From: Chrysomallon squamiferum
Lineage: Eukaryota; Animalia; Mollusca
Assembly (NCBI GenBank): GCA_012295275.1
Contig: CM022665.1
Coordinates: 24,552,001 to 24,616,000 of the forward strand
Direction of reading: 5' to 3'
DNA length: 64,000 bases
This document shows, in pieces, positions 27,601 through 30,600 of the stretch (positions within the stretch are counted from its first letter, which is position 1; the number at the start of each line of letters is the position of its first letter). Both the position numbers and the translations under genes were made by a program. Below the pieces are notes generated by a model, which worked only from the letters and a program-made list of their open reading frames with translations, was not told the DNA's origin and did not search any database.

Positions 27601-30600
27601 ATATATCATTTATAAAACCATTTATTCTTTCATAAATCATTTTTCTGTAACATAATCACATTATAACAAATTTCAGCTGTCACAGTAAACTATGACAGTT
27701 AAATATCTTATAAATAGAACAAAATATGCTGAGAGTTCTATATATATATATATACTTACTGTACGTAAAGTATTATAAGATGCATACAACTGGTCAGAAT
27801 CCTCAAAATCCATGACTGAAAACTATCTCCAAAATAACAAACACAAGTATTATCTCCAAAAACCACTGAAGAAAAACCCGTAAAAAATACACACTCTCAT
27901 ATGTGTTTTAAATCCAGTTATTCACCAGATACTTTCAAATTAAGCTTGTTGTTTTTCACATATATTTATACTTGCAAATACTTTTTTTCCAAGACATAAC
28001 ATCAAGATTTTTTCAGTCTTCAGTTATAGATTCTTGATTGACAATAATTGTAACAGTTGCAATAGGATGTTGTTAACACAAAATTTGACACTGTTGCTTA
28101 TTATTTCAGTACACACACTGATACTACACTGACAAATACTAAACCAGAAATGATCCAGAAAAAAAAGAAGTAATCAGTGGTACGTTAATTAAATACAATT
28201 TCTGGAAGGCTTAGGCATTAATCACTTGCTCTGATCTATTCTCACTTCCATCCTGCTTTCCAATTGTCATCCAAATTGTCTTCACACTTGACATGAATTA
28301 TCCAATACGATGTTAACTTGTGTACAGCATCAACTTGAGCTTGTTCACATTTCTGTGATGTCAATGTAAACAAGCAGACAAAAATATAAAAAATTAAATT
28401 AAAAAATCAGCTTTTCATTTCCATTCCATTATGATGATGTTTTATTTATTTTTTTCAATTATTAAGTCACTGCTGAAGAAAAGAAATCTTTAGGGAAATC
28501 TGCAAATCAAATGAATTATAATTTGATGATGCAAAACAACAGCTTCAGTCACAAAATCTGTTTTAATCATGTTTCTGTAGGATTAGCTCATTGTTTCATT
28601 AGCACTTTGTGATGAAATGTTGGCTTTCATTTTAAAGCCGCAACAGTTTAATATTTAAAAAATAGAACAGGAATTATTTCAAAGAAACATACAGTACAAA
28701 TCAGCCATCATACAAATTCTTTTAACAATGTAGTGAAATAATTATATCCAGTATTATAATGTTAAACTCTCTTTCAAATAAAAGTCATCAAACAATGTCT
28801 TTTAACAAAAAGTGTCCAGTTCTCCTAATGTTAAAGAATTTTACTAATAAAAACAGTCACAAAACAAGCTAAAAACATTTATATAAAAATAAAACAAATA
28901 ACCCACTCATAAACCGTCTTAAAAGATGTCATAACATTTGTCCAGTTCTTCCAATTTTAATACATCATTACTTCTTTCGTTCTCTTTGATGCAAATATAT
29001 GATCCACAATCCTTTTTTGAAGTAAGTTGTTATAGAATCTGGCATTAATAGTTAAACACAGGATAACAGTAAAATATTCAGAAATAAACAAATATACTGG
29101 ATAATGACAAATATTCAGATATAAACAAATACCTGAACAGATTCTGAATAAACACAATGAAACCTAATGACAAAGGTGGAACTGTATTAGAATGTAACAC
29201 CTGCATCATACAGCATTGCCCATCCCTATACCTAACTGCATATGTTTCACATCCACATGTTTCAAGTTCACATCATCTGACTAAACATGGAATATTAACA
29301 AACCAAGAGAGTCTTGTTTCTGGCTCCACCAGCAGTGATAAAAAAAAAGTAATGAAGAAGCATATACTCAGCCAAAAAAAGAAAAGTATTTTAATTTTTG
29401 TAAAAAAATATAAACAAAGGGAGAAATTAATATTTTTCTGGAAAAAAAAAAAAAAAGAAAAAAGAAAAGAATTTATAACAGCAGTTTCACTTATTAAAAT
29501 ATGCCACTTATGTCATTAAGAAAAAACAGTGCTTGGCAAAAAATAACAGGTTTATCAATGACAATACATTACTGGCACTGCCTGTATAAAATATATATTT
29601 CATTATGTTACATTTCTGAAGATGAATCCATTTACACTACTCACAGTTTAAAATATAAAATATATTTGGTCATATTATCTTTATCATCATTATTAACATC
29701 AGTGTTTCAGCTTGGAATATAAAATGTGAAACATAAGTATCTGAGATACGTTGGAAGAAAGGACCATTTTTTCAGACATTTTATGATTAAGTGAATCAAT
29801 GTATTTAAAAATGCAGCCTAGATCATTTATTATTTATTTATTTATTTGTTTGTTTGTTTATTTGCTTGCTTGTTTGTATACTTATTGTTATTTTTTTTCA
29901 AACTGGTGAAAATATAAATATTCATTAACATAAGAAAGTTATAACATTTCCAAACTGGTATCTCAAAGGTATGTACTGTAATGTTTTTAAAAAAATTGTT
30001 GCATAATTATCATTATTAAAAATGTTTACATTATAATCACTACACAGCTAAACAAAATACAGACAAGTAAAAAATTAAAACCTAATTTCAACTTAAAATA
30101 TACAGATCCTTTGCAATAATTTTCTTTTTGTTTCATTGTTCTAGCTTTACTTTTTCTGCTCAGTATACTGAATATAAAAGTTAATGATAGCGAGAGATAA
30201 GTCACACATATTAGCGATAGATACAAAAATAACCAATGGTGCAAAATAAATTATATTTAAAAAATGATGCAGAAAAGAGAAATGAAAACTTGGAGGGGTT
30301 TGGCAGGATATAGTTACGTTTCAACTTAAAGATAATGCACACACAGTCAAAACAATAAATTAAATAAATGAATTTATTAAACTATTTTGTCTGATTAAAG
30401 CATCTGCATTCTTTTCTGATGATGTAAGTCTTGTAACAGTATATACCCACAAAGATATAAACCTGTGTCTTGTCAAGTTATTCTGTGTAAGAGATTAGCT
30501 CAATATTAAGTTTCCTGAAAATTGTTATAAAACACATTTATCATGTAGTTTTGATCTGTAATATAGTTACCAGTTTATATTCCAAATTGTGAATACAGGT

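What the first reader, a model, noticed from the sequence alone, without database searches (positions are those of the whole stretch)
27760..27813. Second, hidden first exon of RyR giving an alternative N-terminus ([18 protein letters not shown])
Seen: inside the 15-kb first intron, the minus strand reads gtc-ATG-G, 18 sense codons, then a perfect GTAAGT donor in phase 0, which is the phase exon 2 needs. The peptide is acidic and ends in LRT, like canonical exon 1 ([20 protein letters not shown]). Known: the FLRT residues begin the beta-trefoil domain A of RyRs, so any replacement exon should keep them. Inference: an internal promoter makes a second RyR isoform, uncoupled from the promoter shared with WDR81. 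That would let an animal that probably has a single RyR gene produce tissue-specific (muscle versus neuron) channels. I do not recall alternative first coding exons being described for RyR, but I could not search.
Basis: partly seen in the sequence, partly recalled or inferred. Interest (0 to 1): 0.8.

Follow-up and report, generated by a model that had tools for sequence, protein, structure and literature searches.

The report
Second RyR start exon drops gate phenylalanine
The calcium-release channel gene RyR of this snail-like mollusc carries what is very likely a second start exon inside its first intron, with similar second exons in clams and annelid worms, and the channel it would make lacks a phenylalanine that is otherwise almost invariant, so it is predicted to open more easily.

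Summary
The minus strand reads ATG (27813), 18 codons ending LRT and a GTAAGT donor in phase 0, matching exon 2; chance is about 2e-4. The junction was not shown by RNA: 0 of 4 small contig sets covered the exon. The idea is not new: C. elegans unc-68 (RyR) has two mutually exclusive, tissue-specific first exons (PMC7644089), and public scallop and clam models already carry a second start. I found no paper on three points. A proximal second exon also sits in annelid-like loci, one beside the canonical exon and one in a spliced contig, under purifying selection. The gastropod, most bivalve and the annelid versions put Thr where 76 of 76 canonical exons have Phe. That Phe is human RyR2 F13, whose F13L variant is gain-of-function (PMC9481874). 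So the exon likely makes a second channel, predicted to open more easily. Promoter, tissue, gating effect and common ancestry are inferred. No listed gastropod database model shows such a start (0 of 56). This scan had not noted it on other DNA.

The parts
27760..27813 (-). Coding part of the second (proximal) RyR first exon, 18 codons, [18 protein letters not shown]; Thr at the position of the canonical Phe
   Evidence: best-ranked of 117 ATG..GT candidates in intron 1 by the bivalve tail profile and by the nematode exon 1.2 profile
27754..27759 (-). Splice donor GTAAGT, phase 0
   Evidence: 6.9 bits; median of true donors 7.4
27814..28240 (-). Inferred 5' UTR and internal promoter region; boundaries not shown. 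TATA-like box at 27970 (base rate 3.4 per kb, not significant); no strong splice acceptor close to the ATG
   Evidence: one 161-nt contig of depth 3.5 at 28080-28240 in 1 of 4 RNA runs, which may be UTR, pre-mRNA or DNA
37343..37402 (-). Coding part of canonical (distal) RyR exon 1, [20 protein letters not shown], donor GTAAGT in phase 0
   Evidence: 19 of 20 identical to Haliotis
22455..37342 (-). RyR intron 1 (14,888 nt) that holds the second exon 5.3 kb upstream of exon 2
22332..22454 (-). RyR exon 2, the shared acceptor (phase 0), start of the domain A beta-trefoil core
15349..15461 (-). RyR exon coding the beta8-beta9 loop with the EKVR motif, the inferred equivalent of human K174/R176 that F13 packs against
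   Evidence: PMC9481874 section 12
42056..43489 (+).

Best explanation
The 18-codon stretch is very likely a second, mutually exclusive first coding exon of RyR, likely transcribed from its own promoter in intron 1 and likely spliced to exon 2, and the channel it would make has Thr instead of the near-invariant Phe13 and is predicted to open more easily. Shown in the sequence: ATG, open frame, phase-0 donor, matching acceptor. Shown in relatives: a proximal second exon beside the canonical one, and a spliced form. Inferred: the promoter, expression in a different set of tissues (by analogy to C. elegans), and the gating effect. About 11 N-terminal residues are predicted disordered in both forms; the last 5-7 exon-encoded residues dock on domain A next to the beta8-beta9 loop, so swapping the exon changes one gate-coupled contact and leaves the other 5,000-odd residues alone. 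I put the exon being real and used at about 0.88, and the whole statement with the gating effect at about 0.5.
For: Chance 2e-4. Bivalve RefSeq models carry both starts at the same junction: Argopecten (9 alternative of 15 scallop proteins listed) and Mercenaria isoform X2. L033 holds a distal canonical exon 6,753 nt and a proximal second exon 1,952 nt upstream of exon 2. The second exon is present in 9 of 11 annelid-like genomic loci with over 2 kb of upstream DNA, and L017 is a contig that joins it to exon 2. Across 7 distinct annelid copies, 15 of 16 third codon positions vary against 2 of 32 first and second positions, so the peptide is under selection. Profiles from other lineages rank the window's exon 1st of 117 (bivalve tail; nematode), and 2nd to 14th (annelid), depending on length. 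Phe is at -4 in 76 of 76 distinct canonical exons among stored proteins. Thr is at -4 in the window, Mercenaria, L001 and the annelids. Human RyR2 F13 contacts K174 and R176, and F13L raises Ca2+ sparking in patient iPSC cardiomyocytes (PMC9481874). L14 packs in a core coupled to the intersubunit interface (PMC3586727). The EKVR motif is kept in the window. AlphaFold models of a natural alternative and a natural canonical annelid N-terminal domain both have residues 1-11 under pLDDT 50, and the alternative tail aligns to RyR residues 10-13 onward (Z 17.6-18.8).
Against: No RNA evidence in this species: 0 of 4 contig sets cover the exon, though the runs are small, the tool skipped a repeat at the donor end, and exon 2 was not in the laid stretch. 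No gastropod database model has such a start: of 65 listed proteins, 56 held the exon 1-2 part, 55 were canonical and 1 (Lottia) began with intron-like residues; only 15 of 41 Haliotis models could be listed. None in 24 cephalopod, 9 Mytilus or 14 Lineus models either. No direct homologue of this peptide was found. No promoter signal stands above background. Argopecten has Ile and nematodes have Tyr at -4, and the canonical exon of L033 has Tyr. In C. elegans, deleting exon 1.2 alone left pharyngeal pumping normal. The F13L effect is from a mammalian channel, and its structural part rests on simulation.
Confidence: 0.5

Rival explanations
1. The exon is real and used, but it serves only to give RyR a second promoter. 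The changed N-terminus folds the same and gates the same.
For: About 11 of 18 residues are predicted disordered. In C. elegans, pumping was normal without exon 1.2 but reduced without promoter 2 plus exon 1.2, and isoforms partly replace each other (PMC7644089). The hydrophobic residue at the L14 position is kept in all alternative exons.
Against: Phe at -4 is invariant in 76 of 76 canonical exons, and even F13L changes Ca2+ handling in human cells. The annelid exon is under protein-level selection along its whole length.
Confidence: 0.28
2. It is an internal exon: either the coding exon behind an unseen non-coding leader exon, or a frame-shifting poison cassette spliced between exons 1 and 2.
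For: AG-ending sites lie 2, 13 and 52 nt upstream of the ATG. The one at 27826 scores 5.0 bits, inside the range of true acceptors (2.8-14.7), and stronger ones lie at 28472, 28499 and 29437. The three near sites would give exons of 56, 67 and 106 nt, none a multiple of 3.
Against: The near sites are weak (under 0, 5.0 and 1.5 bits against a median of 7.5). A poison exon would not need an ATG frame that ends in LRT. A leader exon would give the same protein, so only the promoter position would change.
Confidence: 0.12
3. It is a chance arrangement in AT-rich intron DNA or a dead relic of an old exon 1 duplicate.
For: No RNA cover. No gastropod model shows it. ATG-to-donor candidates of any ending are common (1.4 per simulated intron).
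Against: The LRT ending has an expectation of 2e-4. DNA identity to exon 1 is only 16 of 54 nt, right-anchored, yet frame, ATG, donor and LRT are intact, which a neutral relic would not keep. Independent lineage profiles pick it out.
Confidence: 0.1

Closest known systems
C. elegans unc-68 exon 1.1 / exon 1.2 (Marques et al. 2020, PMC7644089; abstract, passages, Discussion and Methods read; supplements not read)
   Same: RyR gene with a distal canonical first exon and a proximal alternative one in intron 1, both joined to exon 2 in phase 0. The paper's primers translate to the canonical peptide for 1.1 and to part of MDFDFTDISDEDHNYVTK for 1.2. That peptide has the same length as the window's (18), the same MDF start, and 5 of 18 identities without gaps.
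   Different: Exon 1.2 keeps an aromatic Tyr at the Phe13 position, where the window has Thr. Promoters, tissues (1.1 body-wall muscle; 1.2 pharynx and neurons) and phenotypes are shown in the worm and untested here. The sequence likeness is weak (shuffle p 0.02, post hoc), and annelid and bivalve exons show little or none to it (p 0.83, 0.10, 0.06, 0.04).
Bivalve RefSeq/GenBank RyR models with a second start: Argopecten irradians X1 and X3-X10, Mercenaria mercenaria X2, Mya arenaria, Magallana gigas X8 (automatic annotation)
   Same: Acidic leader joined at the same exon-2 boundary. Tail TVRC or IIRC against TLRT in the window, so the Phe is lost there too.
   Different: Different N-terminal half (MG..K/R-rich, 20-22 residues). 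Not discussed in any paper my searches found. The Magallana start is a third, unrelated 10-residue type.
Human RyR2 F13L, L14P, R15P (PMC9481874; abstract, passages and section 12 read) and rabbit RyR1 L14R (PMC3586727, PMC9168041; passages read)
   Same: Changes at the same exon-1-encoded F-L-R residues, which couple to the beta8-beta9 loop.
   Different: Those are disease variants of a single first exon. Here the change would be a natural, switchable isoform, and its effect is only predicted.

Membership tests
Ryanodine receptor gene | Exons in order coding domain A (Ins145_P3_rec), MIR, RIH, SPRY and repeat domains, closest to RyRs | tested here: met
   26 colinear exons match Haliotis RyR residues 1-1041; Haliotis is the best of 23 proteins tested
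Alternative first coding exon (unc-68 exon 1.2 type) | Own ATG, open frame and donor in the phase that exon 2 needs, lying in intron 1 downstream of the canonical exon | tested here: met
Alternative first coding exon (unc-68 exon 1.2 type) | Spliced to exon 2 in RNA of this species | tested here: inconclusive
   0 of 4 small contig sets cover the exon; exon 2 was not in the laid stretch. A spliced form is seen only in an annelid-like contig (L017) and implied by bivalve models
Alternative first coding exon (unc-68 exon 1.2 type) | Own promoter and transcription start in intron 1; mutually exclusive with exon 1 | tested here: inconclusive
   No motif above background; no strong nearby acceptor; no 5'-end data
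Alternative first coding exon (unc-68 exon 1.2 type) | Tissue-specific use | not testable with these tools
   Only contigs from one study, with no tissue labels
Alternative first coding exon (unc-68 exon 1.2 type) | Conserved under purifying selection in relatives | tested here: inconclusive
   Met for the annelid exon and among bivalves (p 1e-4 or less to 4e-4); no related gastropod intron 1 was obtained
Orthologue of nematode exon 1.2 | Sequence likeness beyond shared composition and shared constraint, across intervening lineages | tested here: inconclusive
   Window vs C. elegans 1.2 p 0.02; vs Necator 0.10; annelid vs C. elegans 0.83; 36 pairs were tested, so none of these survives correction
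One ancestral spiralian second exon (gastropod, bivalve, annelid) | Same position and phase, shared derived residues | tested here: inconclusive
   Shared [NDE]-T-[LVI] tail. Window vs L033 p 0.007, Mercenaria vs L033 0.002, L001 vs L033 0.007, while L033 vs canonical exons is 0.6. But window vs Mercenaria and Argopecten is 0.14, and window vs its own exon 1 is 0.016

The most novel reading that the evidence does not exclude
Molluscs and annelids share an ancient two-start RyR switch, possibly as old as the protostomes and lost in arthropods. Its second exon removes the gate-stabilising Phe13 and so builds a naturally sensitised channel for particular tissues, the same kind of change that causes a human arrhythmia (RyR2 F13L).
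Probability: 0.25. Interest if true: 0.75.

Novelty: new variant of a known kind. Interest (0 to 1): 0.5.

Why it matters
Vertebrates tune calcium release with three RyR genes; invertebrates generally have one (PMC7644089). Two tissue-specific starts were shown only in C. elegans in the papers my ten searches reached. If molluscs and annelids use a second start that swaps a disease-linked gating residue, one gene would yield channels of different sensitivity by promoter choice alone. It would also give a natural test of what F13 does in the closed state. If the peptide proves neutral, the finding is an ordinary second promoter and mainly an annotation fix for gastropod RyR genes.

Tried and rejected
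RNA: four contig sets from one study hold RyR exons further downstream. Laid on 27700-28380, none covered the exon and one 161-nt contig lay upstream. This is no evidence of absence, and the junction to exon 2 stays untested. No genome is held for this window, so gene copy number and relatives' introns were not available. A degenerate pattern for the exon's two ends found 0 matches in metagenome contigs. The search of 50%-identity representatives with exon 2 gave 131 hits, mostly intron read-through gene calls, and no new alternative start. A second cluster look-up for Haliotis returned the same 15 of 41 members. Ten complete first introns from arthropod-like loci (68-4,497 nt) held no similar exon, best score 5.0; the positive control scored 51 but was part of the profile, and the sample is small. 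Listed Trichinella, tardigrade, spider, springtail, schistosome, sea cucumber and Capitella models showed only canonical starts; absence from models is weak evidence. Two annelid-like loci with over 2 kb upstream (L023, L040) showed no second exon. The bacterial promoter scan does not apply to an animal gene and was ignored. MEF2, CArG, E-box and CRE motifs were absent from 1.5 kb upstream of the ATG. A recent duplication of exon 1 was rejected: 16 of 54 nt identical. Literature searches; none returned a paper on a second RyR first exon in molluscs or annelids, but the library lacks most subscription papers, and supplements of PMC7644089 (gene model, alignments) were not read. No complex prediction was sent.

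Full report
Observation. The minus strand at 27813-27760 reads ATG and 17 more sense codons, [18 protein letters not shown], followed by GTAAGT. Exon 2 begins at 22454 in phase 0. Canonical exon 1 ends at 37343 with the same donor, so the stretch lies in a 14,888-nt intron, 5.3 kb upstream of exon 2. Only 2 of 12 LRT readings on this strand are followed by GTAAGT, and they are these two exons. Simulated introns often give some ATG-to-donor frame (1.4 each), but 0 of 1000 gave one ending in LRT; the expectation is 2e-4. The donor scores like an average donor of this gene (6.9 bits, median 7.4), and no strong acceptor lies near the ATG. The gene is a RyR of 26 mapped exons, closest to Haliotis among 23 proteins tested, so the animal is likely a gastropod.

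RNA. Four RNA contig sets from one study hold downstream RyR exons. On 27700-28380 none covered the exon. One 161-nt contig of depth 3.5 lay 270-430 nt upstream of the ATG, and the tool skipped a repeat at the donor end. Exon 2 was not in that stretch, so there is no positive control. The junction in this species is neither shown nor excluded.

Relatives in protein databases. Public models show a second start at the same junction in bivalves: 9 of 15 listed scallop proteins (all Argopecten), 1 of 15 Mercenaria/Ruditapes, 1 of 2 Mya, and a different short one in 1 of 15 oyster proteins. Rhabditid and strongylid nematodes have an 18-residue second start, including C. elegans NP_001343815.1. Against this, gastropod models show none: 55 of the 56 with this region were canonical and one began with intron-like residues, out of 65 listed. 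Cephalopod (24), Mytilus (9) and Lineus (14) models with this region were all canonical. Listings are capped at 15 per cluster.

Relatives in genomic DNA. An exon-2 scan of metagenome contigs gave 58 loci. Annelid-like loci (L017's protein is 80% identical to Capitella) carry a 16-17 codon ATG exon ending in SDTICC or TDTICC, 1.1-2.1 kb upstream of exon 2. It is present in 9 of 11 genomic loci with over 2 kb of upstream DNA. L033 holds both a distal canonical-type exon and this proximal one, the same order as in the window and in C. elegans. L017 is a contig in which the second exon runs straight into exons 2 and 3. L055 is a spliced contig with the canonical type. Among 7 distinct copies, 15 of 16 third positions vary but only 2 of 32 first and second positions: this is a coding exon under purifying selection. 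A bivalve-like locus, L001, has an exon ending ETVRN 746 nt upstream of exon 2. Ten complete arthropod-like first introns showed nothing similar (small sample).

Are these one exon by descent? The gastropod, most bivalve and the annelid exons share [NDE]-T-[LVI] before the junction. Shuffle tests give p 0.002-0.02 for several cross-lineage pairs and 0.6 for the annelid exon against canonical exons, but 0.14 for the window against two bivalves, and 36 pairs were tried. I put a single spiralian origin at about 0.55. The window's exon also matches C. elegans exon 1.2 in length and MDF start (5 of 18 identical, p 0.02), and the nematode profile ranks it 1st of 117 candidates. The annelid exon shows no such likeness (p 0.83), so a protostome origin is about 0.2.

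How it most likely works. If neither first exon has an acceptor, promoter choice would decide which one is joined to exon 2 (inferred; shown for unc-68 in PMC7644089, passages, Discussion and Methods read). AlphaFold models of a natural alternative (P0513) and a natural canonical annelid N-terminal domain (mean pLDDT 69 and 72) both leave residues 1-11 disordered. The alternative tail aligns with RyR crystal structures from residue 10-13 on. So only the last few exon-encoded residues are structural. Among these, the Phe of FLRT is present in 76 of 76 distinct canonical exons among stored proteins (the genomic canonical exon of L033 has Tyr). In human RyR2 it is F13: it lies within 5 A of K174 and R176 of the beta8-beta9 loop and limits their motion in simulation, and F13L increases Ca2+ sparking in patient-derived cardiomyocytes (PMC9481874; abstract, passages and section 12 read). 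L14 sits in a small core coupled to the same loop (PMC3586727, passages; PMC9168041, passages). The window keeps the EKVR motif, found as KVR in 416 of 417 stored proteins; matching it to K174/R176 rests on spacing and my recall of RyR2 numbering. The second exon keeps Leu, Arg and Thr but has Thr for Phe. The prediction is a channel whose closed state is less stable. This step is inference from a mammalian channel. In C. elegans, where exon 1.2 keeps an aromatic residue, loss of the exon alone had little effect on pumping, so a promoter-only role remains a serious rival.

Comparison with what is known. It works like unc-68 exon 1.2. Membership as an alternative first exon is met on anatomy and open on RNA, promoter and tissue. 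Ten searches found no paper on a second RyR first exon in molluscs or annelids or on the Phe-to-Thr swap; subscription papers and unread supplements could hold one. The promoter 'shared with WDR81' was not tested: the neighbour is divergent and has kinase-like and BEACH domains, but kilobases and two microsatellites separate the genes. Earlier notes of this scan hold nothing on this exon.

Verdict. A very likely real exon (about 0.88) of a known kind, with an apparently undescribed spiralian spread and a testable change at a disease-linked gating residue. Novelty: new variant of a known kind. Interest 0.5.

Noticed in passing
window 22497-22656 with 24392-24551, and 22723-22774 with 24346-24397: Inverted duplication in RyR intron 1 (160 nt at 96% plus 52 nt at 96%). 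One arm ends 43 nt from the exon-2 acceptor, so the pre-mRNA could form a long hairpin there; it may be a foldback element.
   Followed up: no
L010, L013, L014, L016, L019, L024, L046, about 30-100 nt upstream of the second-exon ATG; 5' part of L017: A conserved block containing TGACGTCA (CRE-like palindrome) precedes the annelid second exon, and TGACGTCA also stands in the spliced contig L017. It is absent from window intron 1 on the minus strand and was not seen upstream in L033 or L050.
   Followed up: partly
protein P0312 (Magallana gigas RyR isoform X8): A third, unrelated 10-residue start joined at the same exon-2 boundary, lacking the FLRT-like tail altogether.
   Followed up: no
protein P0012 (Mya arenaria): The model's alternative start resembles Mercenaria's but stops three residues earlier, at YET, likely a mis-called donor; YET parallels YNT in the window.
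   Followed up: no
window 27900-27850, minus strand: A 16-codon upstream ORF, in frame with the alternative ATG but closed by a stop, would lie in the 5' UTR if transcription starts near the TATA-like box at 27970.
   Followed up: no
L045:8596 and L049:8286: Mite-like RyR loci in which exons 1, 2 and onward are contiguous in long contigs (intron loss), with FIRT for FLRT and a long insertion in domain A.
   Followed up: no
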